64,000 nucleotides of DNA from Caldilineaceae bacterium (GTDB lineage: Bacteria > Chloroflexota > Anaerolineae > Caldilineales > Caldilineaceae): contig OZ243985.1 of assembly GCA_965214895.1 (NCBI GenBank), positions 110,100 through 174,099 of the forward strand. Direction: 5' to 3'. A program made the position numbers and the translations under genes. Position 1 is the first letter of the stretch; each line of letters opens with the position of its first letter. Positions 2,810-17,132 of this stretch are shown one piece after another. Below the pieces are notes generated by a model, which searched no databases, was not told where the DNA came from, and saw only the letters and a list, made by a program, of their open reading frames with translations.

Positions 2810-5101
2810 TTGGCTTTGGGAGACGGCTCCTGTCAGCGCAGCCTTGTTTTGAGCAACCTCGCCCCTTCTCTGCCTTTGTCCCAGATCATCCATGAAGTGG
2901 CGCGCCTGGTAGCCAACGGCAACCTGTCGACATCCGACCGCCATCTTCTGGACACTTTGGGCCACCGGTGCCAAAGACGGCCCAACACCTGCATGCTGTG
3001 GCGAGACTTTCAGGCGGATCCCTGGGGGCGCCGCGTTCCCTTGGAAACATGGCTGCGGTCCGAGATCGACTCGTTCCCCGGTTTCGCGCGCGAGATCCAG
3101 ACCACTTGGCGAAACCGTGCAGTCTGGAATGGGCAGACTGCCCTTGATGCCCGGCCCGGCACACGATCGGTGAAGCAGACACTGCCGTCTCACGTCGAGA
3201 CCCCGTCGCTGCTGGCCCAGGCCTTGCCTGGCCCCATCTTGTCGCTCTGGCGCCTTTGTGTGCCGGAGCCCATGACTCAATCCCTGCTGGCCTCGGTGCA
3301 AAGCCTGCACGGTTCCGCCTCGATCATGGAAAGAGGCCGCCATCTGGCCCGACACATGGTCCAGTATCTGAGGCTGACGGCCCAGATGGAACCGCACAGC
3401 CAGGTGCCCTTTTACCATGACGGCTTGCTGCTGCAACGGCTGGAGGAGCACTTGCAGCTGCCTCCCACGGCCACGGCCACCCGCAGCGCCTCCGCCATGG
3501 CCGCCTCGGCCCCTGATCCAGAACCCGAAGCCCCGGAGCGCCCTGTCGTTTCCCGCACCTTGGAAATGGAATGCCCAGACCGCGTCTGGACCGGAGATCC
3601 CATGGTTCGGGTGAAGGTGCGCCTCTCGCCGACCCCCCAAGGCGATGATGTGCCCCACATGACGCTGTCCCTGCAGCAGGAGTTGCCGGTGCTGGTCTGG
3701 ATTGCGGCTCCCGGCTTCGACAACCTGGGGCCCCATGTGCAGACCCTTTGGGCAGGGCCAGAGCAAGGACCTACCGAAGCGGAGTTCGAGCTGCAGCCCC
3801 AGACCGCGGGCCGCACGCACATCACGGTCCACTGCCTCCAGGAAGGCACCCCCCTGGGCACTCTTTCCACCCAGGTGGAGGTATCCGAGCACGTGCCTGT
3901 CCAAGTGCAGCAGCGCACCGTGGAAGCCCGGCGGCTGGCCCTGGATGCCGACGCGGAATCCCCGGATCTGACCCTGTTTGTCCACTACGACACATCTCGG
4001 GCCCAGCCGCGGCTGCTGCTGAATCTCTACTGCGATTCCCGGCTGGCACAGAGCTGCCCCCCCTTGACGCTCAAGGGGGATCCCCAGACCTACTATGACA
4101 GCCTGTACCGGCGGCTCTCCGACCTGACGGATCTCTTCGACCTGAAGAAATCAGACGTGGCAGCCCGGGAGAATCTGTGGCAGGCGATGCGCAGGCTGGG
4201 CCACAGCCTGTGGAACGACCTGATCCCGCAGGCCTTACAGGAACGCTACGCCTTGGAACGGGCCGAATGGCGCGACAAGTCCTTCCTAGTGATTACGGAT
4301 GAACCCTTCATTCCATGGGAACTGATGTGGCCCTACGGCTACCAGGGCGAGACCTGGGAAGACGAAACACCCTGGTGCCTCTCCCTGCGGATGACGCGCT
4401 GGCTCCACCGGGACCAGGAAGGCAGCGGCCTGCAGGGCCCCCCCACCCACCTGGCCTTGGAACGCTTTGCCTTTGTGGGACCCACCCGTACCAATCTGTC
4501 CGCCGTGTCCAATGAAGGAGCCGATCTGAAGGCCCTGATGCAGCAGGCCGGAGTCTGCGATGCCAGCCCCCGCTTCAACACGTTGGCGCAGGTCACGGCC
4601 CTTCTGGAATCGGGAGACTACGACTGGTTCCATCTGGCCTCGCACGGCGAATTTGCAGCGGCGGAGCCAGATCAGGACTCGGCACTGCTGCTGGACGGGA
4701 ATCAGCCCCTTACCCCCAACTCCCTGATCGGCCCGGAAGTGCAAGGACACCTGTTTGCGCAGCGTCCGGGATTCGTCCTGAACGCCTGCCACACAGGGCG
4801 ACAGGGATTTGCCCTGACCCGGTTGGGGGGATGGGTGAACAGACTGGTGGGATCCGGAGCGGGCCTCTTCATGGGCCCGCTGTGGACGGTGACCGACGAA
4901 TCGGCCCGGCGGTTTGCCCAGCGCTTCTATGCCCTGCTGCTGGAAGGGGACACGGTGGCGCAAGCCTTGCACGGCGCCCGGGACACGATCCGCCAGACCG
5001 GAGACCCGACCTGGCTGGCCTACAGCGTCTATGCCCACCCCAACGCGCGGCTGCATGTGCGCCCACCGGCTGTGGACCGGCAGACGGCTGCAAAGCGCTA
5101 G
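2810..5101 (+). CDS. CHAT-domain (caspase-like protease fold) protein with a large uncharacterised N-terminal region
   Basis: 763-aa ORF opening at TTG 2810. The true start is uncertain because several in-frame ATGs lie downstream. The C-terminal ~280 aa show the CHAT His/Cys dyad contexts 'WFHLASHGEF' and 'FVLNACHTGRQ'. A beta-rich segment ('MVRVKVRLS...THITVHCLQEG') and ~230 aa with no domain I recognise precede it. Stop TAG at 5099-5101. Confidence 0.8.
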   Translation: MALGDGSCQRSLVLSNLAPSLPLSQIIHEVARLVANGNLSTSDRHLLDTLGHRCQRRPNTCMLWRDFQADPWGRRVPLETWLRSEIDSFPGFAREIQTTWRNRAVWNGQTALDARPGTRSVKQTLPSHVETPSLLAQALPGPILSLWRLCVPEPMTQSLLASVQSLHGSASIMERGRHLARHMVQYLRLTAQMEPHSQVPFYHDGLLLQRLEEHLQLPPTATATRSASAMAASAPDPEPEAPERPVVSRTLEMECPDRVWTGDPMVRVKVRLSPTPQGDDVPHMTLSLQQELPVLVWIAAPGFDNLGPHVQTLWAGPEQGPTEAEFELQPQTAGRTHITVHCLQEGTPLGTLSTQVEVSEHVPVQVQQRTVEARRLALDADAESPDLTLFVHYDTSRAQPRLLLNLYCDSRLAQSCPPLTLKGDPQTYYDSLYRRLSDLTDLFDLKKSDVAARENLWQAMRRLGHSLWNDLIPQALQERYALERAEWRDKSFLVITDEPFIPWELMWPYGYQGETWEDETPWCLSLRMTRWLHRDQEGSGLQGPPTHLALERFAFVGPTRTNLSAVSNEGADLKALMQQAGVCDASPRFNTLAQVTALLESGDYDWFHLASHGEFAAAEPDQDSALLLDGNQPLTPNSLIGPEVQGHLFAQRPGFVLNACHTGRQGFALTRLGGWVNRLVGSGAGLFMGPLWTVTDESARRFAQRFYALLLEGDTVAQALHGARDTIRQTGDPTWLAYSVYAHPNARLHVRPPAVDRQTAAKR

Positions 5102-8292: not shown

Positions 8293-8741
8293 CAAATTGT
8301 CGCTGTCGCGGCTGGGACACCCCGGGAAACAGCCGTCACGGGCCCTCGGGCTGTGCTGTCTGGCTCCATGGTTTTCACGGTCCAGCCGGGACAATCTGAC
8401 TACAGTGACGGAAAGTCCGGCATGCAGGGCTGGAGGGGTCGAAGTTCAGGCGCGGGCCAAAGTCACTCTACATCAGCCCCGCAAGTACAGCACTCGCAGG
8501 TGCCTGTCGTGGATTGAAGGGCCAAACTTGCACTGATACCGGACCCGATATCCTGTGTCTCCCTTTTTCGGCGCGCAAGGCCCGAACACTCCAGCCCACG
8601 CTGTGTATTCCCGTGCCGTTGCATCCTGCTCCCGGTGATCCGGCCCCCGAGCCGTGCCCACTGACTCTGGAAAACCACGGGCAGAACAAACATAGCCGGC
8701 CCGCAGAAAGCCGATGGCCCAGAATTGAAACAACAGATTTG

Positions 8742-8776
8742 TTGACAACTAATCTGTTGAATGATAGATTCAACAA
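8742..8776 (+). promoter_or_regulatory. Sigma70-like promoter with overlapping palindromic operator upstream of the NTPase pair
   Basis: TTGACA (8742-8747), 17-nt spacer, TAGATT (8765-8770). An 8-bp inverted repeat TGTTGAAT-gatag-ATTCAACA (8756-8776) overlaps the -10 element. TGTTGA(A/C) recurs three times between 8740 and 8786. This is a locally AT-rich stretch ~30 nt before the ATG at 8807. Confidence 0.4.
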
Positions 8777-8806
8777 TTTTGTTGAATGGAGGAATGGAGA
8801 TTGACC

Positions 8807-10039
8807 ATGAGATCATCCACCGGCCGGTGGGCAAGCGGCGACGATTTTTTCGATCGCGCAGCCGAACTGCAAATCCTGGAATCCCGTATCTGCGACTTCA
8901 ATCATGTCCTGTTGACCGGACAGCGGCGCATGGGCAAGACCAGCATGGCACGGGAACTTGGCAGACGACTGGAGACAAAGGGGTGGGTCATGCTCTTCGC
9001 CGATGTCGAGGATGCAACTTGTGCCGAAGACACAATCGCCACCATTGCTGCCGCCGTGCACCCGGTGCGACCGATCGCGTCGCGTTTTGCGGCAGCAATG
9101 CAACGCTGGGTTCAGACCAATGTCGAGGAACTCAGTGCCTACGCCTTCCGAGTCAAGATCCGCGCGGGTCTGAGTGAAGGGAGTTGGCGGGGATACGGCG
9201 CGAAATTGCTGGGAGAATGTGCCCGTCATGATCAGCCGGTGCTCTTGGTTATCGATGAGCTGCCTATCTTTCTGAAGCGGATGCTCCGCCACGACAATGG
9301 CAAACAGCGGGTTGACGAGTGGTTGAGTTGGTTGCGGAGTGTGCTTCAAGGTCTCTCCGGTAAATCCCTGTCCCTCATCGTTTCCGGCAGTATCGGTCTC
9401 CAACCTTTGGTGCAACAGCTGGGATTGTCGGATCGCATCCACTATCTCTACATGTTTCGTCTGGGCCCCTGGAGCCGTGATTCGAGCATTGCATGTTTCC
9501 ACAGGCTGGCTGCGAGCCATGACATTTCAGTGGCGGATGGTGTGGCGGATGCGGTTTATGATGCCCTTGGCTTGGGTGTGCCGCACCACGTGCAATCCGT
9601 TTTCGCTCGTCTGCAGGATTTTGTCATCATGCAGGAGCGAGACCAAGTTTCGGTGCAGGATGTTCATCAGGTCTACCGCCATGAGCTTCTTGTTCCTGCC
9701 GGACAAAACGATCTTGTGCATTACGAAACGCACCTCAAGGAAGGCTTGGGTGACGAGAAGAATCACGCCTTTGCCATGGAAATTCTGGCGGAGGCCGCCA
9801 CGCAGGAATCGTTCACCCCTGATGCGCGGCACTGCCTCGCCAGGTTGTACTCGACCCTGGTCACCGATGCCCCGGAGCGTATTGCCAATGTGCTTGATGT
9901 CCTGGAGCATGACGGTTATCTCGAATCTGGCGACAATGGACATCGGGTTGCCTCGAAACTGCTTAAGGATTGGTGGGAGACACGCTTTCGCGATCACCAT
10001 CTGCCCCTCGTGAAGAGAGTGGGGAGTGTCAACGCATGA
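8807..10039 (+). CDS. P-loop NTPase (archaeal-type ATPase_2 / DUF234-like AAA ATPase with C-terminal winged-helix-like domain)
   Basis: Walker A 'LLTGQRRMGKTS', Walker B 'VLLVIDELP', C-terminal 'VLDVLEHDGYLESGDNGHRVASKLLKDWW'. I prefer ATG 8807, which has GGAGA 6 nt upstream. The track ORF opens at ATG 8786. Stop TGA at 10037-10039 overlaps the next gene's ATG. Confidence 0.8.
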   Translation: MRSSTGRWASGDDFFDRAAELQILESRICDFNHVLLTGQRRMGKTSMARELGRRLETKGWVMLFADVEDATCAEDTIATIAAAVHPVRPIASRFAAAMQRWVQTNVEELSAYAFRVKIRAGLSEGSWRGYGAKLLGECARHDQPVLLVIDELPIFLKRMLRHDNGKQRVDEWLSWLRSVLQGLSGKSLSLIVSGSIGLQPLVQQLGLSDRIHYLYMFRLGPWSRDSSIACFHRLAASHDISVADGVADAVYDALGLGVPHHVQSVFARLQDFVIMQERDQVSVQDVHQVYRHELLVPAGQNDLVHYETHLKEGLGDEKNHAFAMEILAEAATQESFTPDARHCLARLYSTLVTDAPERIANVLDVLEHDGYLESGDNGHRVASKLLKDWWETRFRDHHLPLVKRVGSVNA

Positions 10040-12909
10040 CAAAGGCCAGCGCAGTCGCATCCATGGATCGATCGATCCGCAAATTCAATCCGGGCACATT
10101 CCAATCCGATCAGGAGATCATCCAGCAATTTGTGGTCAGACAACGCGAGTTCAACACTGTACTGGAAGTGCTGCGTGACAACCTGGATGCATCATCGTGC
10201 CAGCACGTGTTGGTGGTTGCCCCGCGTGGTCAGGGCAAAACCATGTTGTTGGCTCGCATTGCTGCGGAGTTGCGCACCAACGGGACACTCTCCAGACACA
10301 TGTGGCCTGTCCGGTTGATGGAAGAGAGCCAGGAAATTTTCACTCTGGCTGACTTCTGGCTCGAAGCGCTTTTCTACCTGGCTCAGGAGTGTTCAGGCCG
10401 CAACCCCGAACTTGCCAGGGAATTGCGAGATGCGCACACGGCATTTGCCAAGCGGTGGCGTGAAGACAATTTGGAGCACTATGTGCGCGCTACGGTCCTG
10501 GAGGCTTCGGACCGACTCCACAAACGGCTTGTCCTCATGGTTGAGAACCTGCAGGAACTGTGCCGGAACGTGGACAATGACTTTGGATGGAAATTGCGCC
10601 AGACATTGCAGACCGAACCGCAAATCATGCTGCTGGCCACAGCCACCTGTCGGTTCAGGGAATTGGATGACGCAGAGCAATCCTTCTTCGAGCTCTTCCG
10701 CATTGTCCATCTGGAACCGTTGTCTACCTCAGAGTGCCAGCGCCTGTGGCAAGTGGCCAGTGCAGACCAGGCAACTGAAAGGGAGATCCGGCCTCTTGAA
10801 ATCCTGACCGGTGGAAGTCCCCGCCTTCTGGTCATCGTCGCCGGTTTCGCAAGGCACGGGTCATTGAATCAGTTGATGGAGGAGTTGGTACAGCTGATCG
10901 ACGACCACACTGAATATTTCCGCGGCCACCTGGAGATTCTGGCCAAGACCGAACGCCGCGTTTTTCTCGCCACCATGGACCTCTGGCAACCATCAAGCAC
11001 GGGAGAAATCGCTGCGCGGGCCCGGCTGGATGTACGGACCACATCCACCATGCTCGGAAGACTGGTTGAGCGCGGGGCTGTGGTCGCGGAAGGGGGCGGC
11101 GGCAAACGGCAGTACACAGCCGCGGAACGTCTCTACTGCATCTATTACAAGCTGCGGCGTGAACGAGACGAAGCTGCCATTGTGAGCAACCTGATTCACT
11201 TCATGGCGGTGTTTTACCGCGAAACCGAACTTGCCGAGATATTCGTCAGACTGGCCTTGGAGGCAGCCGTCTCATCCACGATTCAAGAGGGAATCGCGCG
11301 GGCCATGCACAATGATCCGCAGATTGTCAGTGTGTTCCGCGACGTGAGACTACCTGACATCGAGCCGGAAACCAACCAAGACATGGCGACAGCCATGGAA
11401 TTGTTGAGCGAAGGATACGGCCAGTGGAAACAGGGCAGGGCTTCAGAGGCGGTGGCAACCCTCAACAAGGCCATAGCGATCTGTTCTGATCGCGAAGATC
11501 CGAAATTCCAGAGTTTGGTCGCCGTGGCTTTTCTCGGAAAGGCTACGCTGAGTCAGGAACTCGGTGAACTTGAGACTGCGATAGAAGCTTACGATGAAGT
11601 GGTTGCCCGCCTTGGTGTCAGCAGTGTACTTGAGAGCCAAGTGACGGTCGCCAGAGCATTGGTTTGCACGGGATGTATACACCATCAGCTTGGCAACATA
11701 GAGGCGGCTATTGATGCCACCGCTACCGTAGTCCGGCTTTTCGGTTCCAACGGTGCACCCGAGCTCCAAAAACTGATGGCTCAATCCCTAGCCTTGCAAG
11801 GTGCTTGCCGAATAGAAGGCAGTGAATTCGAGCTAGCCATCACTGCCTTTGAGGCCATAGTCGAGCGGTTTGGTTCCAGCGATACTCCAGAACTTCAGAA
11901 ACAGGTTGCCGGGGCCTTGCTCGCCAAATGTATTTCTCAATTGGAGCTCGGTGCATTTGAGACAGCGGCAGTAACTTCAGACATATTGATCGAACAGTTT
12001 GGATCCAGCGATGCTCCAGAACTCCAGGAGCAGGTTGCCGGGGCCTTGTTCTACAAATGTATTTCTCAATTGAAGCTCGGTGCATTTGAGACAGCGGCAG
12101 TAACTTCAGACATATTGATCGAACAGTTTGGATCCAGCGATACTCCAGAACTCCAGGAGCAGGTTGCCTGGGCCTTGCTCTACAAAGGGCTGTTGCAATT
12201 CCACCTTGGGGAATTCAAGGCAGCAGTAGCAACCTATGACAACATGTTTGGGCGGTTTGGCTCCAGTAGTACCCCAGAACTCCAGCAATTGGCCGCGCAG
12301 GCACTAGTCACCAAATGCACGATGCAAAGGAGACTTCATAAATTCAAGGCCGCGTTGAAAACCGCAAAAGAGATGGTCAAGCATTTTGGTGCCAGTGATA
12401 CTCCGGAACTTCAGAAGTTAGTCGTGCAGATACTGATTGAGCAGGGAAGCGTACAAACTGCTATCGGCCATTCACGTAAAGCGTTGCGCACCTGCGACGA
12501 GCTCAATCACAGGCTCGGCATCTTGAAAAACCAACTGCACAGCCAGGTTGACACTGAATCAAGCAAACTCCAGTGGCAGTCAAGATGGGTCAGAACACAA
12601 GCGTTGCAGATCTGTGGAAGACAGGATCTTGCCATGGATACATTTCGCGTCGTATATGCCGAGTTTCAACCCGGCAGCGACAGCATGATGCGCGAAATGC
12701 AGGTGCAAGTTCTTGATCTGATAGCAAATGGCGCTTCGGTACACGATCTCGTCGAGATCCTTGAGACAGATACAAACAAATCGGAAACACTTGCGCCCCT
12801 TGTCTGTGCCCTGCACCAACTTGCCGGCAAGTTGGTGCGCGCGCCAGCGGAGGTACTGGCGGTCGCGGCTGACCTTCTGGCCCAGAGAGAGTTGAACCAG
12901 AAGACTTGA
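10036..12909 (+). CDS. STAND/ORC-like P-loop NTPase with winged helix and C-terminal 43-aa helical repeat array
   Basis: ATG 10036-10038 forms an ATGA overlap with the upstream stop, with GGGGAG 9 nt upstream. Walker A 'VVAPRGQGKTMLLA', Walker B 'LVLMVENLQ', wHTH-like 'STGEIAARARLDVRTTSTMLGRLVERGAV'. At least 7 tandem 43-aa repeats of the type 'FGSSDxPELQxxVAxAL...' follow. There is no recognisable effector domain. Confidence 0.8.
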   Translation: MTKASAVASMDRSIRKFNPGTFQSDQEIIQQFVVRQREFNTVLEVLRDNLDASSCQHVLVVAPRGQGKTMLLARIAAELRTNGTLSRHMWPVRLMEESQEIFTLADFWLEALFYLAQECSGRNPELARELRDAHTAFAKRWREDNLEHYVRATVLEASDRLHKRLVLMVENLQELCRNVDNDFGWKLRQTLQTEPQIMLLATATCRFRELDDAEQSFFELFRIVHLEPLSTSECQRLWQVASADQATEREIRPLEILTGGSPRLLVIVAGFARHGSLNQLMEELVQLIDDHTEYFRGHLEILAKTERRVFLATMDLWQPSSTGEIAARARLDVRTTSTMLGRLVERGAVVAEGGGGKRQYTAAERLYCIYYKLRRERDEAAIVSNLIHFMAVFYRETELAEIFVRLALEAAVSSTIQEGIARAMHNDPQIVSVFRDVRLPDIEPETNQDMATAMELLSEGYGQWKQGRASEAVATLNKAIAICSDREDPKFQSLVAVAFLGKATLSQELGELETAIEAYDEVVARLGVSSVLESQVTVARALVCTGCIHHQLGNIEAAIDATATVVRLFGSNGAPELQKLMAQSLALQGACRIEGSEFELAITAFEAIVERFGSSDTPELQKQVAGALLAKCISQLELGAFETAAVTSDILIEQFGSSDAPELQEQVAGALFYKCISQLKLGAFETAAVTSDILIEQFGSSDTPELQEQVAWALLYKGLLQFHLGEFKAAVATYDNMFGRFGSSSTPELQQLAAQALVTKCTMQRRLHKFKAALKTAKEMVKHFGASDTPELQKLVVQILIEQGSVQTAIGHSRKALRTCDELNHRLGILKNQLHSQVDTESSKLQWQSRWVRTQALQICGRQDLAMDTFRVVYAEFQPGSDSMMREMQVQVLDLIANGASVHDLVEILETDTNKSETLAPLVCALHQLAGKLVRAPAEVLAVAADLLAQRELNQKT
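11869..12255 (+). repeat. Three tandem 129-bp (43-codon) repeats inside the STAND gene
   Basis: Copies start at 11869, 11998 and 12127. Copies 1 and 2 differ at ~10 of 129 nt and share a block of >50 identical nt. Copy 3 matches copy 2 for ~60 nt and then diverges. More diverged 43-aa copies flank them. Confidence 0.9.
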
Positions 12910-13214
12910 ATCCCTTGCCGGAAAGTCCGATGTCATACTCCTTGTCCCAGATTCAATTTCAGAGTCCAAAACGAACAAGCTGTCCATGCTGTCTTGAGAA
13001 TGCATTCGGCAGCATGTACAGAAACAGCTTTTCGGTAGCACACACGGCAATGTGGCGGCGCGCTGTTGATCTTGGCCTGACGGCCTTGCGGTACGTGCTG
13101 CCAGGCAACTGTCTCAATCCAGCTTCCCACAGTCAGCTGTTCTACATTCGGAGCAGCCGCAGGAGCCAACCATGTTCAAGACCAACCCTATCCTGCTCTT
13201 CGGGACGATTTCGC

Positions 13215-13379
13215 GATCTTGACATCGTAGTTCCAGCGAGGAATCGCGTCGTTGAGTTCGCCAAAATTATGTCTGACATCATCCGTCAGGTGCGGTGCCT
13301 AAAGCGATTGACACTCAGGCTCTCTCAGGCCCGTGACCTGCTTCTCCCATGCCTGATGTCCAGGGAAGTGGCAGTGTGA
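13215..13379 (+). pseudogene. hsdS: Relic C-terminal fragment of a type I restriction-modification specificity subunit (HsdS)
   Basis: Translation 'DLDIVVPARNRVVEFAKIMSDIIRQVRCLKRLTLRLSQARDLLLPCLMSREVAV*' matches the conserved HsdS C-terminal helix and tail ('...L..LRDxLLPKLxSGEx.V'). No intact target-recognition domain lies upstream. Its TGA (13377-13379) overlaps a GTG (13376-13378) in the AlbA_2 frame. Confidence 0.5.
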
Positions 13380-15136
13380 ACCAGAACGCACTCTCCGACC
13401 TGGTCGCTCTGGGCGAAGGTTTCACGATTGAGTTCAAGCGTTCCGGCACGGACAAGCTTGGACGCGAAATATGCGCTTTTGCCAACGCCACCGGCGGCAC
13501 GATTCTGCTTGGTGTAGCGGATGACGGAGAAGTTTGCGGGATTGCCAACCACAATCGCTTGAAATCCGAAGTCCAGTCAATCGCCCGTTCAGCTGATCCA
13601 CCCATCGCGGTGGAGATTGAGAGTGTCGACCAGGTACTTTGTGTACGAGTGCCTGCTCAGCAGAGCAAGCCCTATTCGTTCGGGGGCCAGTTTTTCATCC
13701 GCGAGGGGGCAAGCAGCCAGCAAATGTCACGCGAGGAGATCCGCGAGTTCTTCTTCAAGGAAGAGCTCATCCGATTCGATGAAACACCATGCCGCAGCTT
13801 CGATTTGAAGAGGGACCTGACGGAGGAAAACTGGGAGCGGTTCGCGCAACGAGCAAGGCTTCCCGCAGGCCCGGAGCCGATCGCGACGCTACAGAACCTG
13901 CATTTGGTAAAAGCTGGAGAAATGACCCACGCCGGTGCATGGCTGCTCGCCGAGGACATCACACACCACACCCTGCAGGCGGGGGTGACCTGCGCGGTCC
14001 TCCGGGGCGTAACCAAGACCCACATCCTCGACCGGAAGGAGTTTACCGGCGACCTGTACTCCACGTTTGAGGATTGCATGGCGTATCTGCAGGCCAAGCT
14101 CAACACGGCTTTGATACCCCACGCACGGGGCAGGGACGAACAGCTCGAGCTTCCTGAAGATGCCTTGCGGGAAGCGCTGGTGAACGCTATCGCTCATCGG
14201 GACTATCGATCCACGGCGAATGTACAGGTCTACATCTTCCGTGACCGTTTGGAGATTGTGACTCCAGGTGGTCTGCCGGCAGGGATGCATAAAGAGGACC
14301 TGGGCACGAAAAGTGTCCCTCGGAATCCCCTGCTGTTCGGGATGTTCTACCGCATGGGGTTGGTCGAGCAGATCGGCAGTGGCATCCGGCGCATTCGCCA
14401 GTTGTGTCACGACTACAAGGTCGCCGAGCCACTGATCGATGTCTCCGAGAATTGGGTGACTACAGTGTTCGCCCGGCAGGGCGAACATGCTGCAGACCGG
14501 AGGCCCCAGCATGTCACCCCGCAAGTACCCTTTAGGTATCCGTCAAGTGCCCTGCAAGTCACCCCGCAAGTCAGAAACCTCATCCGCTGCCTGGACGGTG
14601 AGCATACACGCGCTGAAATCCTGCAGCGGCTGGGACTGAAGGATCGCACGAATCTGGCCAGGGAATACGTGCAACCGGCTCTTGCCGAAGGTCTCATCGA
14701 AATGACCATCCCGGACAAACCGCGGAGCAGCAAACAGAAATATCGTCTCACGGACAGGGGCCGGGAGTTGCAGGACCGCATCTCCGAGAATGGGGAAACA
14801 ACAGCGTTCGCCCGGCAGGTCGAACATGCTGCAGACCGGGGGCCCCAGCATGTCACCCCGCAAGTGACCGACAAGCATCCAACAAGTGCCCTGCAAGTCA
14901 CCCCGCAAGTCAGAAACCTCATCCACTGCCTGGACGGTGAGCATACACGCGCTGAAATCCTGCAGCGGCTGGGACTGAAGGATCGCACGAATCTGGCCAG
15001 GGAATACATGCAACCGGCTCTCGCCGGCGGTCTCATCGAAATGACCATCCCGGACAGACCCCGCAGCAGCAAACAGAAATATCGACTGACGGACAGGGGC
15101 CGGGAGTTGCAGGATCGCTTGCGGCAGGCGCGCTGA
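13349..15136 (+). CDS. Schlafen/AlbA_2 domain - HATPase_c_4 - wHTH protein ('RecG-like' putative DNA-binding regulator family)
   Basis: N-terminal AlbA_2 pattern 'GEGFTIEFKRS...REICAFANATGGTILLGVADDGEV'. Central 'LREALVNAIAHRDY...VPRNPLL...VEQIGSGIRRI'. C-terminal 'TPQV' repeats plus wHTH 'HTRAEILQRLGLKDRTNLAREY.QPAL..GLIEMTIPD.PRSSKQKYRLT'. The start is ATG 13349 or GTG 13376. Confidence 0.85.
   Translation: MPDVQGSGSVNQNALSDLVALGEGFTIEFKRSGTDKLGREICAFANATGGTILLGVADDGEVCGIANHNRLKSEVQSIARSADPPIAVEIESVDQVLCVRVPAQQSKPYSFGGQFFIREGASSQQMSREEIREFFFKEELIRFDETPCRSFDLKRDLTEENWERFAQRARLPAGPEPIATLQNLHLVKAGEMTHAGAWLLAEDITHHTLQAGVTCAVLRGVTKTHILDRKEFTGDLYSTFEDCMAYLQAKLNTALIPHARGRDEQLELPEDALREALVNAIAHRDYRSTANVQVYIFRDRLEIVTPGGLPAGMHKEDLGTKSVPRNPLLFGMFYRMGLVEQIGSGIRRIRQLCHDYKVAEPLIDVSENWVTTVFARQGEHAADRRPQHVTPQVPFRYPSSALQVTPQVRNLIRCLDGEHTRAEILQRLGLKDRTNLAREYVQPALAEGLIEMTIPDKPRSSKQKYRLTDRGRELQDRISENGETTAFARQVEHAADRGPQHVTPQVTDKHPTSALQVTPQVRNLIHCLDGEHTRAEILQRLGLKDRTNLAREYMQPALAGGLIEMTIPDRPRSSKQKYRLTDRGRELQDRLRQAR
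14468..15133 (+). repeat. Tandem duplication (2 x 339 bp) of the C-terminal wHTH module of the AlbA_2 gene
   Basis: Copy A spans 14468-14806 and copy B 14807-15133. The encoded 113-aa units differ at ~11 residues, and long DNA stretches are identical. Confidence 0.9.
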
Positions 15137-15743
15137 CCTCTCCCGGATCATCCAGGCGCTGCACGGGATTGTCGGTCAGAGCATCAACGTCACCGCTGCA
15201 GGGAACGGAGAAGATGGATGTCTCTACGTCATCTCGGCCATTGACTTTGCGAGGAAGAGGCTGACATATTGGATACGCTGAACGCGTGGGTGGCCGCGCA
15301 GGGAATGTCCCAAGGCCGAACAGGCTACTACCACGACTACCGGGGTGAGGAGACAGGAGCCCGGCCCGCCATATTCGACTTGGTGGCCCATGAGGCTGCA
15401 GGCTGGATTGAGCGAACCTGTAGTGGTGCTTCCAAACGCCTCTGAGAAATTCCGGAGATTGCCAGTGCAGCCGGACTTCGCTGTCTTGCCTCGGAGGCGA
15501 CTTTCCCGGAATATGTCCTGTCCGAGGCACTGGGAGAGGGGGCCTGAGGCGGTACAGGTCCCCAGGGCTGCCTGGATCCTGGCATGAGCCGATCCGGGTG
15601 TCTTGCCGGGAATCATCCGCCGGGATTGTCCCTGGCTGCCTGTGGGATGGCTGTCCGCACTGCCCGCAAGGACCCCCGGTCGACTGCAGAGGAGGCTGGG
15701 CCTGCACCACCACTGTATCCACGCAGTCGCTGAGGTTGCGGCA

Positions 15744-17132
15744 TCAAGTCGCGGCGGCTTGGTCCAAGACCTGCTCCCAATTTTGTTCGCGCAGGAGCTG
15801 GCCATCCCGAAACACGGGCTCCAGCAGATTGCGATCCGTATCCCGCAGTTGCGCCGCAGCCACCGTGCTAAAGGCCCCGGTCTGGACATCCCGCACCAGG
15901 GCCAGACGGCCGCTGCGGCTGTGTTTGGCGGGATCGGTGACGGGGCGTTTGTACACTCCCCGCGCCGCACCGTTCACTACGGCATGGCAGCACTTCATGG
16001 CCACGCGGAGGGTATCGCGCGTACATTCCTGCAACAGGCCACCGCCGGACCCGAACACCAGATTGTCCGTGCTCCAGCGGGCTTCCAGCAATGCGTCCAG
16101 AATGGCCGGCAGACTCCGGCGCGTTATGCCGTCGCCCTGGATCAGGCGAATGTGATCAGGCAGCAGGCGATAGCCTTTGGCATTGCGGATCGTGCCGAAG
16201 GCCTCGCCCAGCAGCTCCAGGCAATCCAGCAGCGTGGGGATGGGATCGCCGCTGTCCGGGCGCACCACCACGGTACCGGCGCGCGCTTGCACCTGATCCC
16301 GCAGCGCGGAGCCCCACAGTACGCGACAGGCCCGCCGGACATCCCAGGAATCGCTGACCACACTGACGATGCCCTCCGGGTATGCATTCAGAATATGGGC
16401 GAAGGCCTCCGCCTCGCCCTGCGGCCCCCAGGCTGTAATGGTGGAATGTTCGGCCGCGGGGACAGAATAGCCGGGCATGCCGGATCCATAGTACTGCTGC
16501 AGCAGCCGACAGGCCGCCAGCGTGTCCGTCCCCCGGAAGTGCAGCAGATGGGCCGCGCCCCCCAAGGCGGCTGATTCCTCGGAAGTGGATCCACGGTAGC
16601 CAAAGTCGTGCAGCTGAAACGGTACGCGGGCCGGATCGCCGGAACGTTCGGCCGCGGCCTGCAAGGTATCGTACTGCACCCGGCCCAGCGAGGCGATGGT
16701 AAGCGGATACCAGACCTGCACCAGCAGCGTTTCCAGATGGTTGGTCAGCCAGTGGCAGGCGGGATCGGTATTGCGGATGGTGAGCAGGACATGGCCGGTC
16801 GGCACGCGTTGGCCCTCCCGCACCGCCCAGATTTCCACCGGCAACCGGCCGGCATGGCGGTCCAGGATATGTTGCCAGCCGGCACCCGGCCACACATCCT
16901 GTCCGAAGTGGGCCTGGCAGAACCGGTGTGCCTGCCGGATCCGGTCCGCGGTGACACGGATACCGGTCATGTAACGCTTGAGCAGGTACTGGAGACCAAA
17001 GAACACCGTGTGATTGCATTCCCCTCCGCAGCGCGCCTCAAGATAGGACTCGATCTCGGTGGTGCCGGGGGGATACATGCGCCAATGCGTCTGTTTGTAG
17101 CTGTCGGTTTGCAGAAGTATGTTGTCTTGCAT
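15744..17132 (-). CDS. nadV: Nicotinamide phosphoribosyltransferase (NAMPT)
   Basis: Motifs 'ILLQTDSYKQTHW', 'HDFGYRGS', 'PAAEHSTITAW', 'VVRPDSGDP', 'IQGDGI', 'FGSGGGLLQ'. I prefer ATG 17130-17132 ('MQDNILL'). The track ORF opens at GTG 17144. Confidence 0.9.
   Translation of the reverse strand: MQDNILLQTDSYKQTHWRMYPPGTTEIESYLEARCGGECNHTVFFGLQYLLKRYMTGIRVTADRIRQAHRFCQAHFGQDVWPGAGWQHILDRHAGRLPVEIWAVREGQRVPTGHVLLTIRNTDPACHWLTNHLETLLVQVWYPLTIASLGRVQYDTLQAAAERSGDPARVPFQLHDFGYRGSTSEESAALGGAAHLLHFRGTDTLAACRLLQQYYGSGMPGYSVPAAEHSTITAWGPQGEAEAFAHILNAYPEGIVSVVSDSWDVRRACRVLWGSALRDQVQARAGTVVVRPDSGDPIPTLLDCLELLGEAFGTIRNAKGYRLLPDHIRLIQGDGITRRSLPAILDALLEARWSTDNLVFGSGGGLLQECTRDTLRVAMKCCHAVVNGAARGVYKRPVTDPAKHSRSGRLALVRDVQTGAFSTVAAAQLRDTDRNLLEPVFRDGQLLREQNWEQVLDQAAAT

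What the first reader, a model, noticed from the sequence alone, without database searches (positions are those of the whole stretch)
8742..12909. Translationally coupled pair of effector-less P-loop NTPases (ATPase_2-like + STAND/ORC-like with 43-aa repeat sensor array): candidate undescribed sensor/defence module
Seen: the two plus-strand genes (8807-10039 and 10036-12909) overlap by ATGA, with GGGGAG 9 nt upstream of the second start. This arrangement suggests coupled translation. Both carry Walker A/B motifs ('GQRRMGKTS'/'LLVIDELP' and 'PRGQGKTML'/'LVLMVENLQ'). Each NTPase core is followed by a winged-helix-like segment. The second protein then runs into at least 7 consecutive 43-aa helical repeats. 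I recognise no nuclease, protease, TIR, SIR2, PLD, kinase or membrane effector domain in either protein. The operon has its own sigma70-like promoter with an operator-like palindrome. It lies in an AT-richer stretch next to an NTase-HEPN fusion, a relic hsdS and a Schlafen/AlbA_2 gene. Established: STAND NTPases with C-terminal repeat sensors (Avs/AVAST, bNACHT) are phage sensors, but they normally carry a fused effector. Inference: this may be a two-component sensor/helper NTPase module with unknown output. It is the strongest candidate for something undescribed in this window.
Basis: partly seen in the sequence, partly recalled or inferred. Interest (0 to 1): 0.75.

Follow-up and report, generated by a model that had tools for sequence, protein, structure and literature searches.

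The report
Self-regulated two-ATPase sensor cassette
Two overlapping genes for ATP-binding proteins, one ending in a fast-varying repeat "sensor", form a compact unnamed cassette with its own conserved DNA switch that has spread between many bacterial phyla; it looks like an immune-type sensor, but its output is unknown.

Summary
Gene A (8807-10039, 410 aa) and gene B (10036-12909, 957 aa) overlap by ATGA.

- **Conserved pair:** in 80 of 80 related genome loci B directly follows A, overlapping by 4 nt in 51 and by 1 nt in 8. No third gene is conserved.
- **Gene A:** an ATPase_2/ORC-like AAA+ ATPase with a winged helix.
- **Gene B:** an ORC/STAND-like NTPase with an unusual "EN" Walker B motif and a MarR-like winged helix. 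It then has eight 43-aa TPR-like repeats (0-27 in relatives, with a hypervariable helix face).
- **Operator:** three CAAC-N6-GTTG palindromes overlap the promoter. They travel with the cassette, even in relatives only 30-35% identical, so A or B probably autoregulates the operon.
- **Spread:** A is about as similar between phyla (median 67.7%) as within them (68.9%). This indicates horizontal transfer among uncultured MAGs, several apparently from sponges.
- **Naming:** no PADLOC, NCBIfam or Pfam family names the pair.
- **Defence context:** present in this lineage but weak across all loci.

Best reading: an autoregulated NLR-like sensor with an AAA+ partner and no enzymatic effector. A defence role is plausible but unproven.

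The parts
8731..8744 (.). Operator site 1, palindrome CAACAGATTTGTTG. Its 3' end plus the start of site 2 forms the -35 hexamer.
   Evidence: The same palindrome lies upstream of A in 68 of 81 loci.
8746..8759 (.). Operator site 2, CAACTAATCTGTTG, 15 bp from site 1.
   Evidence: A 15-bp-spaced pair occurs in 45 of 81 loci and the GTTGACAAC junction in 65 of 81.
8771..8784 (.). Operator site 3, CAACAATTTTGTTG, just downstream of the -10 hexamer.
8742..8770 (+). Sigma70-type promoter: TTGACA, 17 nt, TAGATT, with TG before the -10. It is interleaved with the operators.
   Evidence: consensus scan only. The TTGACA at the site 1/site 2 junction is conserved in other loci.
8796..8799 (+). GGAG ribosome-binding site, 7 nt before the start of A.
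   Evidence: Read from the sequence.
8807..10039 (+). Gene A, 410 aa. AAA+ ATPase of the ATPase_2/ORC type (Walker A GQRRMGKTS, Walker B LLVIDELP), a lid, and a C-terminal winged helix (aa ~355-395).
   Evidence: Model pLDDT 82. Best folds are 2qen and 2fna, then ORC/Cdc6 and RuvB. The family profile hits 2qen at E 4e-7.
10021..10026 (+). GGGGAG ribosome-binding site for B, inside the end of A.
10036..11364 (+). Gene B, N-terminal module (aa 1-443). It holds a conserved N-terminal peptide IRKFNPGTFQSD, a P-loop NTPase (Walker A PRGQGKTML, Walker B VLMVEN), a helical lid, a MarR/ArsR-like winged helix (aa ~304-375) and an arm.
   Evidence: The profile hits MarR regulators at the winged helix and ORC4 at the NTPase. 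This module is ~65% identical in 80 of 80 loci.
11365..12534 (+). Gene B, array of TPR-like repeats (aa 444-833). Eight units of 43 aa are found by HMM. It includes a 129-bp tandem DNA repeat at 11861-12285.
   Evidence: The number of units is 0-27 in relatives. Hypervariable positions are 12, 13, 16, 19, 20, 23-27 and 31.
12535..12909 (+). Gene B, conserved all-helical C-terminal domain (aa ~834-957, motif PLVxALxQxxGxxVRAPxEVLxVAxDL) and the stop codon.
   Evidence: Found at the C-terminal end of B in 78 of 80 loci at 30-53% identity (L002 79%). No Pfam or PDB match, and found only in this family. Model pLDDT 80-88.

Best explanation
**What it is (shown).** A self-contained, horizontally mobile cassette at window 8731-12909. 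It holds an operator array interleaved with its own promoter, then gene A, then gene B, which is translationally coupled to A.
- A is an ATPase_2/ORC-type AAA+ ATPase with canonical Walker motifs and a C-terminal winged helix.
- B is an ORC/STAND-type NTPase. Its Walker B reads E-N instead of D-E/D-D.
- B continues with a MarR-like winged helix and a rigid array of 43-aa TPR-like repeats whose helix-A face is hypervariable.
- B ends in a family-specific C-terminal helical domain.

**How it most likely works (inferred).**
1. One of the two winged-helix ATPases binds the CAAC-N6-GTTG palindromes. These cover the -35, the -10 and the start region, so the operon is kept low.
2. The repeat array of B is a receptor for a variable macromolecular ligand, most likely a protein of a phage or another mobile element.
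3. On ligand binding, B, a slowly hydrolysing ATP switch, opens and oligomerises like other STAND/NLR proteins.
4. B then engages the catalytically competent A. Signalling runs through A's ATPase and DNA-binding activity, through the C-terminal domain of B, or both, and the cassette is derepressed.

In short, it is an NLR-like sensor plus AAA+ partner module with no recognisable enzymatic effector. It is not covered by the named systems in the libraries I could search.
For: **Obligate pair**
- B directly follows A in 80 of 80 loci.
- The overlap is 4 nt in 51 loci and 1 nt in 8; every gap is at most 23 nt.
- No third gene is conserved; the next commonest neighbour cluster occurs in at most 7 of 80 loci.
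- The same pairing and 4-nt overlap hold for A relatives at 30-40% identity. A 25%-identical pair exists in Segatella.

**Folds**
- A matches 2qen and 2fna, then ORC/Cdc6.
- B's best fold match is 6mfv, a STAND with a TPR sensor. B's N-terminal profile hits ORC4 and MarR winged helices.

**Operator**
- 154 of the 189 CAAC-N6-GTTG sites in 1.62 Mb of loci lie within 200 nt upstream of A.
- The motif is kept in relatives 30-35% identical.
- Extra B copies carry their own operator pair.
- Since only A and B travel with the sites across at least 10 phyla, one of them should be the binder.

**Sensor-like variation**
- Repeat number ranges from 0 to 27.
- Scaffold positions carry under 1 bit of entropy; positions 12/13, 16, 19/20, 23-27 and 31 carry about 3 bits, with helical periodicity.
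- Neighbouring repeats are near-identical at DNA level.
- Alleles are mosaic: dS is 0.066 in the N-terminal part and 0.645 in the C-terminal domain between the window and L002.

**Mobility**
- A identity is 68.9% (median) within phyla and 67.7% between them, with a between-phylum maximum of 85.5%.
- GC is lower than in the flanks.
- Some contigs carry several cassettes, and some loci are A-B-B'.

**Local context**
- This lineage has CHAT, NTase-HEPN, the cassette, GmrSD-HsdM-HsdS (kept in L002, deleted here) and an AlbA_2 gene.
Against: - No effector domain is recognisable, and nothing shows what the module does after sensing.
- The nearest neighbours in 80 loci are mostly housekeeping genes such as PdxA, guanylate kinase and phosphoribosyltransferases.
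- Only 10 of 80 loci have homologues of six local defence genes within 10 kb.
- There are no copies on viral contigs and only one distant plasmid hit.
- The window versus L002 comparison shows purifying selection throughout B (dN/dS about 0.2).
- Which protein binds the operator is not determined.
- An A-B contact has not been modelled.
- Lee et al. 2026 class most STAND clades (391 of 589) as not defence-associated (PMC13581612).
Confidence: 0.5

Rival explanations
1. A MalT/PH0952-like signal-transduction transcription factor pair with no role in defence. B senses a cellular or host-derived ligand through its TPR array. Together with A it then controls promoters that carry CAAC-N6-GTTG sites, meaning its own promoter and a few others.
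For: - The closest solved fold, 6mfv, is PH0952, a predicted transcription factor with an ArsR-like DNA-binding domain.
- B's winged helix matches MarR-family regulators at profile level.
- Operators are conserved.
- Orphan operator pairs sit in front of other genes in L015, L044 and L068.
- Neighbours are mostly housekeeping genes.
- No effector is present.
Against: - Sensors of metabolic regulators are normally conserved. Here repeat number ranges from 0 to 27 and one helix face is hypervariable.
- No conserved target gene is adjacent.
- The operator geometry covers the -35, the -10 and the start, which fits autorepression rather than activation.
- Transfer between phyla, several copies per contig and truncated copies fit a conflict gene better.
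Confidence: 0.25
2. A maintenance or replication module of an unrecognised mobile element. A would be an ORC/Cdc6-like initiator that binds iteron-like repeats next to its own gene. Alternatively, the pair acts as an autoregulated addiction module.
For: - A resembles ORC/Cdc6 initiators bound to origin DNA.
- Two to four repeated palindromes lie in an AT-rich stretch next to the gene.
- The two-gene overlapping operon with promoter-overlapping palindromes resembles toxin-antitoxin layout.
- Transfer between phyla is evident.
Against: - No integrase, transposase, relaxase or other element gene is conserved next to it.
- No terminal repeats or conserved sequence follow the B stop.
- It is absent from viral contigs and nearly absent from plasmids.
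- The sites sit exactly on the promoter, as expected for autoregulation.
- This reading does not explain the variable TPR array.
Confidence: 0.08
3. A host-interaction factor of sponge symbionts: a eukaryote-like TPR protein that is delivered to, or senses, the animal host.
For: - The 80 best genome loci are all MAGs from phyla typical of sponge microbiomes. Several carry sponge-study bin names (RHO, CAR, Langseth, Aplysina bin36). Sponge MAG studies use these hosts (PMC8163846).
- TPR proteins are known to be enriched in sponge symbionts. This point is from my own knowledge and was not tested here.
Against: - No signal peptide or secretion-system gene is associated with it.
- B is fused to an intracellular-type NTPase switch.
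- Relatives at 30-40% identity with the same pair and operator occur in other metagenomes.
- The habitat of most MAGs could not be verified with the tools.
Confidence: 0.05

Closest known systems
Antiviral STAND NTPases (Avs/AVAST) and bacterial NLR-like proteins
   Same: Both have a P-loop NTPase of the ORC/STAND lineage, followed by a winged helix and a long TPR-type alpha-helical repeat sensor. Both show variable sensors, horizontal transfer and several copies per genome.
   Different: - There is no fused nuclease, protease, TIR or SIR2 effector.
- No Avs model in PADLOC matches.
- It has an obligatory, translationally coupled second AAA+ ATPase.
- It has a conserved operator array and a family-specific C-terminal domain.
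- Its Walker B motif reads EN.
- Its association with defence islands is weak.
PH0952 / MalT-type STAND transcription factors (PDB 6mfv)
   Same: 6mfv is the best fold match for B, sharing the NOD, arm and TPR sensor. The module is also tied to specific DNA sites.
   Different: PH0952 and MalT carry a dedicated fused DNA-binding domain (ArsR-like or LuxR) and act alone (PMC6468293). B has none beyond the winged helix of the NTPase module. B also needs, or at least always accompanies, partner A, and its sensor is hypervariable.
ATPase_2 (PF01637) archaeal-type AAA+ ATPases PAB2304 (2qen) and SSO1545 (2fna), and ORC/Cdc6
   Same: A has the same AAA+ / lid / winged-helix layout (TM 0.6-0.7). The A family profile hits 2qen at E 4e-7.
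   Different: Sequence identity is only about 17%. The window protein scores below the Pfam cut-off for ATPase_2. Those solved proteins have no known partner or function, and there is no replication-origin context here.
Predicted two-gene nSTAND2 counter-invader system (Kaur et al. 2021, PMC8195603)
   Same: It is a precedent for an operon in which two adjacent genes each encode a STAND-type NTPase.
   Different: That system is described in the context of glycosyltransferase (GT4) effector domains. Here Pfam gives only sub-threshold nSTAND3 and nSTAND5 hits, and A is ATPase_2-like rather than a second STAND.

Membership tests
STAND NTPase superfamily (gene B) | P-loop NTPase domain with Walker A and Walker B | tested here: met
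   Walker A PRGQGKTML and Walker B VLMVEN. AAA_16 and AAA_35 match near their cut-offs. The acidic pair is E-N, which is atypical, and it is invariant in the family.
STAND NTPase superfamily (gene B) | Helical domain plus winged-helix domain after the NTPase (NOD), then arm and repeat sensor | tested here: met
   The model's secondary structure shows this layout. The best PDB fold is 6mfv, a STAND with a TPR sensor, at E 2.5e-9 but with a low global TM of 0.26-0.35.
STAND NTPase superfamily (gene B) | Match to a curated STAND clade model (NACHT, NB-ARC, nSTAND1-6) above its threshold | tested here: not met
   nSTAND_NTPase5 scores 22.9 bits against a cut-off of 34. NACHT scores 15.1 against 26.7.
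STAND NTPase superfamily (gene B) | At least one effector domain at a protein end | tested here: not met
   No effector family appears in Pfam, PADLOC or NCBIfam. The C-terminal domain has no match at all.
Avs / AVAST antiviral STAND | Match to Avs models, or a fused immune effector | tested here: not met
   PADLOC gives only a P-loop-level hit to mad8 at E 0.003.
Avs / AVAST antiviral STAND | Enrichment next to known defence genes | tested here: inconclusive
   The window and L002 lineage has a local island. The nearest neighbours of 80 loci are mostly housekeeping genes, and 10 of 80 loci have homologues of six defence genes. No genome background was available.
Avs / AVAST antiviral STAND | Recognition of a phage protein that triggers cell death or protection | not testable with these tools
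   This needs plaque assays or co-expression screens.
ATPase_2 (PF01637) / ORC-like AAA+ (gene A) | Pfam PF01637 above its gathering score | tested here: not met
   The window protein scores 19.9 bits against 33.2. Many 65-70% identical homologues carry a precomputed PF01637 hit.
ATPase_2 (PF01637) / ORC-like AAA+ (gene A) | AAA+ core, lid and C-terminal winged helix, as in 2qen and 2fna | tested here: met
   Foldseek ranks 2qen and 2fna first (E about 1e-10, TMt 0.68-0.69). The family profile hits both.
MalT/PH0952-type STAND transcription factor | Dedicated fused DNA-binding effector domain (LuxR, ArsR, OmpR/BTAD) | tested here: not met
   No such domain is found in B. Only the winged helix of the NTPase module is present, and it resembles MarR at E 4e-4.
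MalT/PH0952-type STAND transcription factor | Specific target DNA sites | tested here: inconclusive
   Conserved CAAC-N6-GTTG sites travel with the cassette. Binding by A or B has not been demonstrated.
Named defence systems in PADLOC v2.0 and NCBIfam 20.0 | Full-length match of either protein to a system component | tested here: not met
   Only short P-loop matches were found: PDC-S01, PDC-S27, mad8, DS8 and DS41_1, with E values from 1e-3 to 1e-6 and scores far below the cut-offs. This holds for the window proteins and for distant relatives.

The most novel reading that the evidence does not exclude
A bacterial helper/sensor NLR arrangement that works without an enzymatic effector. One conserved ORC-like AAA+ 'helper' (A) would serve one or more diversified STAND-TPR 'sensors' (B, and B' in A-B-B' loci). 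The output would be ATP-driven DNA binding or clamping and transcriptional derepression through a dedicated operator. The whole cassette would have swept by horizontal transfer through at least ten phyla of a shared host-associated community, apparently the sponge microbiome.
Probability: 0.2. Interest if true: 0.85.

Novelty: new variant of a known kind. Interest (0 to 1): 0.62.

Why it matters
STAND/NLR-type sensors are central to immunity in bacteria, plants and animals. In bacteria they are understood almost only where a nuclease, protease or NADase is fused to them. This module is different:
- It is widespread: 1,772 representative clusters at 50% identity match A at E ≤ 0.001, and 273 stretches in species-representative genomes encode an A relative.
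- It is strictly two-gene.
- The sensor has no such effector. It always comes with a second AAA+ ATPase and a portable operator.

If it is immune, it would show a new way for an NLR-like sensor to signal. It would also be a bacterial parallel to helper/sensor NLR pairs.

If it is regulatory, it would be a mobile, self-contained transcription switch with a rapidly diversifying ligand-binding surface.

Either way it gives concrete experiments: a defined 14-bp operator, two Walker A lysines (K44 in A, K68 in B) and a deletable C-terminal domain. Its cross-phylum spread is also a clear case of gene flow within an uncultured community.

Tried and rejected
- **A and B as recent paralogues:** rejected. 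BLASTP finds only the P-loop (E 0.086).
- **A third conserved gene or separate effector:** rejected. All-vs-all clustering of 5,042 ORFs from 80 loci finds nothing beyond A, B and their shadow ORFs.
- **Terminal repeats or a conserved 3' end:** none found. Similarity stops at the B stop codon.
- **Phage or plasmid carriage:** no viral contig and one distant plasmid hit.
- **Identity of the C-terminal domain of B:** a profile search of PDB, Pfam scans of 24 members and a 5.8-billion-protein search all failed. The last returned only short fragments of B itself.
- **Looking up the exact window protein on its contig:** not on record.
- **dN/dS for A between the window and L002:** invalid, because a 3-nt indel shifted my ungapped comparison. 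Ignore that line.
- **Deciding which protein binds the operator from loci with a rearranged operator (Vicinamibacterales):** the half-site is unchanged and the A winged helix is conserved, so it is not informative.
- **Literature searches:** searches for sponge plus STAND, COG1672, nSTAND5 and effector-less STAND found no description of this pair.


Full report
**1. The observation**

- Gene A runs 8807-10039 and gene B 10036-12909. The ATG of B overlaps the TGA of A as ATGA, and GGGGAG lies 9 nt upstream of the B start.
- The start of A at 8807 is supported by 23 homologues that all begin M(R/K)xxTGRW.
- The quoted Walker motifs are present. A has a canonical Walker B (LLVIDELP). B has VLMVENLQ, with E-N in place of the usual D-E or D-D. 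That pair is invariant among close homologues and kept in relatives only 37-45% identical.
- A sigma70-like promoter, TTGACA-17-TAGATT, lies at 8742-8770.
- GC falls to 0.51-0.57 over the cassette, against 0.60-0.67 in the flanks.
- The repeats are real. Five units show strict 43-residue spacing, an HMM finds eight units, and the DNA holds a 129-bp tandem repeat up to 92% identical between copies.

**2. The pair is an obligate, ancient unit**

- A scan of species-representative genomes found 273 relatives of A.
- In all 80 loci returned, the N-terminal module of B lies directly downstream of A at about 65% identity.
- The A stop and B start overlap by 4 nt in 51 loci and by 1 nt in 8. The gap never exceeds 23 nt.
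- Clustering every ORF of at least 90 aa in these 1.6 Mb found no third conserved gene. After A, B and their shadow ORFs, the commonest neighbour cluster occurs in at most 7 of 80 loci.
- Sequence similarity ends at the B stop codon.
- The pairing is much older than this subfamily. A relatives at 30-40% identity from unrelated metagenomes are also followed by a B-like NTPase, overlapping by 4 nt in L083 and L084 and separated by a 14-nt gap in L087.
- A 25%-identical pair in a Segatella copri plasmid has the same 4-nt overlap. There the second protein is short and lacks repeats.

**3. Anatomy of A**

- Pfam gives AAA_16 and AAA_22 above threshold. ATPase_2 is only sub-threshold.
- The AlphaFold model (pLDDT 82) shows an AAA+ core, a lid and a C-terminal winged helix.
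- The best structural matches are the two ATPase_2 proteins of unknown function, 2qen and 2fna, followed by archaeal ORC/Cdc6 on DNA and RuvB.
- A profile of the family hits 2qen at E 4e-7.
- A is conserved along its whole length, at 60-71% identity across the 79 loci other than the sister genome L002.

**4. Anatomy of B**

B has four parts.
- **N-terminal module (aa 1-443).** It is conserved and begins with an invariant peptide, RKFNPG. Its NTPase matches ORC4 and RuvB at profile level. Its winged helix matches MarR-family regulators (E 4e-4).
- **Repeat array.** The repeats are TPR-like and 43 aa long.
- **C-terminal domain.** It sits at the very end of B in 78 of 80 loci at 30-53% identity (79% in L002). 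Its motif is PLVVALRQRxGExVRAPxEVLEVAxDIR. It has no Pfam or PDB match. A search of 5.8 billion proteins returned only short fragments of B itself.
- **Whole-protein fold.** The model (pLDDT 76, with the repeats and C-terminal domain at 80-92) is closest to 6mfv, the archaeal STAND with a TPR sensor, PH0952. PH0952 is a predicted transcription factor whose ArsR-like DNA-binding domain was removed for crystallisation (PMC6468293).

**5. The sensor varies like a receptor**

- Across loci B ranges from 513 to 1745 aa, setting aside one frameshifted copy of 235 aa (L043). It has 0 to 27 repeat units, and the flanking N- and C-terminal parts stay in place.
- In 258 full repeat units the scaffold positions (R1 F2 G3 S5 Q11 V14 A15 A17 L18 K21 G22 G29 A34) carry less than about 1 bit of entropy.
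- Positions 12/13, 16, 19/20, 23-27 and 31 carry about 3 bits. Their i/i+3/i+4 spacing places them on one face of the first helix.
- Adjacent repeats in the window are nearly identical in DNA, so the array changes by unit duplication and exchange.
- Between the window and its sister genome L002, synonymous divergence jumps from 0.066 in the N-terminal module to 0.645 in the C-terminal domain. This shows recombination between alleles. dN/dS stays near 0.2.

**6. A portable operator**

This is the main new finding.
- The 'operator-like palindrome' is three copies of CAAC-N6-GTTG at 8731-8744, 8746-8759 and 8771-8784. The 64-kb window holds 4 matches against 1.07 expected.
- Sites 1 and 2 are 15 bp apart, and their junction (GTTGACAAC) creates the -35 hexamer. 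Site 3 follows the -10.
- The same arrangement stands in front of A in other phyla. 68 of 81 loci have at least one exact site, 45 have a 15-bp-spaced pair, and 65 have the GTTGACAAC junction.
- Of the 189 exact sites in 1.62 Mb of loci, 154 lie within 200 nt upstream of A.
- Relatives only 30-35% identical keep the motif.
- Where a second B copy follows the first (L006, L016; L036 also has one), an operator pair lies just upstream of it. I read the sequence for L006; for L016 the site cluster sits about 90 nt before the second copy.
- Only A and B move with these sites between phyla. One of the two winged-helix proteins is therefore very probably the binder, and the geometry predicts autorepression. 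This is inference; binding was not tested.

**7. Distribution and mobility**

- The 80 best loci are all metagenome-assembled genomes. They come from Acidobacteriota, Latescibacterota, Gamma- and Alphaproteobacteria, Binatia, Nitrospirota, Nitrospinota, Gemmatimonadota, Thermodesulfobacteriota, Chloroflexota and Spirochaetota.
- Several bins carry names of sponge studies (RHO, CAR, Langseth, Aplysina bin36), consistent with PMC8163846. The habitat of most MAGs could not be checked, so 'sponge-associated' is an inference.
- The median identity of A is 68.9% within a phylum and 67.7% between phyla. Cross-phylum pairs reach 85.5%. This argues for horizontal spread rather than vertical descent.
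- No copy was found on viral contigs, and only the distant Segatella pair was found on plasmids.
- The window is syntenic with a Caldilineaceae MAG, L002. The flanks are 89% identical and the cassette 95%.

**8. Is it defence?**

Evidence in favour:
- The variable receptor-like array.
- Mosaic alleles.
- Several cassettes per contig (L040 and L072; L038).
- A-B-B' loci.
- Truncated copies.
- Lower GC than the flanks.
- Horizontal spread between phyla.
- A local island in this lineage: a CHAT protein, an NTase-HEPN fusion, the cassette, GmrSD-HsdM-HsdS (present in L002, deleted in the window) and an AlbA_2/Schlafen-type gene.
- The distant Segatella pair sits beside WYL, IetA-like and DUF262 genes.

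Evidence against:
- The nearest neighbours of the 80 loci are mostly housekeeping genes.
- Only 10 of 80 loci carry homologues of the six local defence genes within 10 kb.
- No effector is present, and no named system matches.
[quoted passage not shown] An unassigned STAND is therefore not automatically immune.

**9. Most likely mechanism**

*Shown:*
- A coupled AAA+ ATPase and NTPase pair.
- A receptor-like repeat array.
- A conserved C-terminal domain.
- A conserved operator on the promoter.

*Inferred:*
- At rest the operon is autorepressed by A or B.
- B, whose E-N Walker B suggests ATP binding with poor hydrolysis, is held closed as in other STANDs.
- A variable protein ligand binds the hypervariable face of the array.
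- B then opens, oligomerises and recruits the catalytically competent A.
- The signal is passed on through A's ATPase and DNA-binding activity, through the C-terminal domain of B, or both, and the operon is derepressed.

I put this at about 0.5. The main rival, at about 0.25, is a non-immune MalT/PH0952-like regulatory switch. A mobile-element maintenance module (0.08) and a host-interaction factor (0.05) are poorly supported.

**10. Comparison and novelty**

- The module works most like an Avs/NLR-type sensor, but it fails the membership tests for Avs: it has no effector and no model match.
- It resembles PH0952 and MalT in fold and in its tie to DNA sites, but it lacks their fused DNA-binding domain and does not act alone.
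- A predicted two-STAND-gene system (nSTAND2) is a precedent for paired NTPases, but it is described with glycosyltransferase effectors (PMC8195603).
- I therefore rate it a new variant of a known kind. It combines a STAND-type sensor with an obligatory ATPase_2-like partner, a portable operator and a novel C-terminal domain.

**11. Verdict**

- The defence claim remains unproven, and 'effector-less' may simply mean that the output is DNA binding.
- Interest is 0.62.

Noticed in passing
window 12977-13379; L002 14338-19844: The sister genome L002 has a 5.5-kb block directly downstream of the cassette: a GmrSD-type restriction enzyme, a split HsdM and HsdS. The window has lost the block and keeps only the 3' end of hsdS. 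This is a recent deletion of a type I R-M plus type IV restriction block.
   Followed up: yes
L015 ~2487, L044 ~18499, L068 ~19416: Orphan 15-bp-spaced CAAC-N6-GTTG operator pairs lie in intergenic regions away from any A or B gene. L044 and L068 lack the sites in front of their own A gene. These pairs could be relics or additional regulated promoters.
   Followed up: partly
L006 14606-16950, L016 ~14070-16529, L036 ~15343: Some loci are A-B-B'. A second, diverged full-length B copy follows the first. In L006 it has its own operator pair and no second A. This suggests one partner ATPase can serve several sensors.
   Followed up: partly
L040 and L072 (same contig JAJDZN010000113.1); L038 18493-19704 minus strand: Two cassettes lie within 34 kb on one Bryobacterales contig. 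In L038 a second, diverged cassette (47% identity) sits on the opposite strand, next to a B of 1745 aa with 27 repeats.
   Followed up: no
window 2810-5101 (+): A 763-aa protein has a C-terminal CHAT (caspase-like) domain (E 1e-20) and about 460 aa of unassigned N-terminal sequence. It lies 3.7 kb upstream of the cassette. It is syntenic in L002 but is not linked to the cassette in other loci.
   Followed up: partly
window 13349-15136 (+): The AlbA_2/Schlafen plus HATPase_c_4 protein carries two near-identical copies of its C-terminal Fic-like_C winged-helix segment. This is an internal tandem duplication of about 95 aa, visible in the translation.
   Followed up: no
window 12535-12906 versus L002: The C-terminal domain of B is 79% identical to L002 while the N-terminal 440 aa are 97% identical. 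Synonymous divergence is tenfold higher in the C-terminal part, so alleles of B are recombinant mosaics.
   Followed up: yes
L081 (Segatella copri plasmid NZ_CP085933.1, 33590-35637): A distant version of the pair (A-like 384 aa, B-like 298 aa, 4-nt overlap, no repeats) sits next to a WYL regulator, an IetA-like ATPase, a DUF262 protein and IS elements. Different AT-rich palindromes replace the CAAC-N6-GTTG sites.
   Followed up: partly
L087 7032-9660: In one distant relative the B-like NTPase is only 468 aa. It is followed by a separate overlapping 410-aa gene with weak TPR matches, as if the sensor were encoded as a third protein.
   Followed up: no
L007, L008, L020, L027, L033, L041, L052 (Vicinamibacterales and one Bryobacterales MAG), upstream of A: This group lacks exact CAAC-N6-GTTG sites. 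Several of these loci instead show a longer inverted repeat, TTGACAAC...GTTGTCAA, about 30-40 bp apart. It uses the same half-site in a rearranged operator layout.
   Followed up: partly
window 8784-8799: GAATGGAG is directly duplicated just upstream of the A start, giving two tandem Shine-Dalgarno-like GGAG motifs.
   Followed up: no
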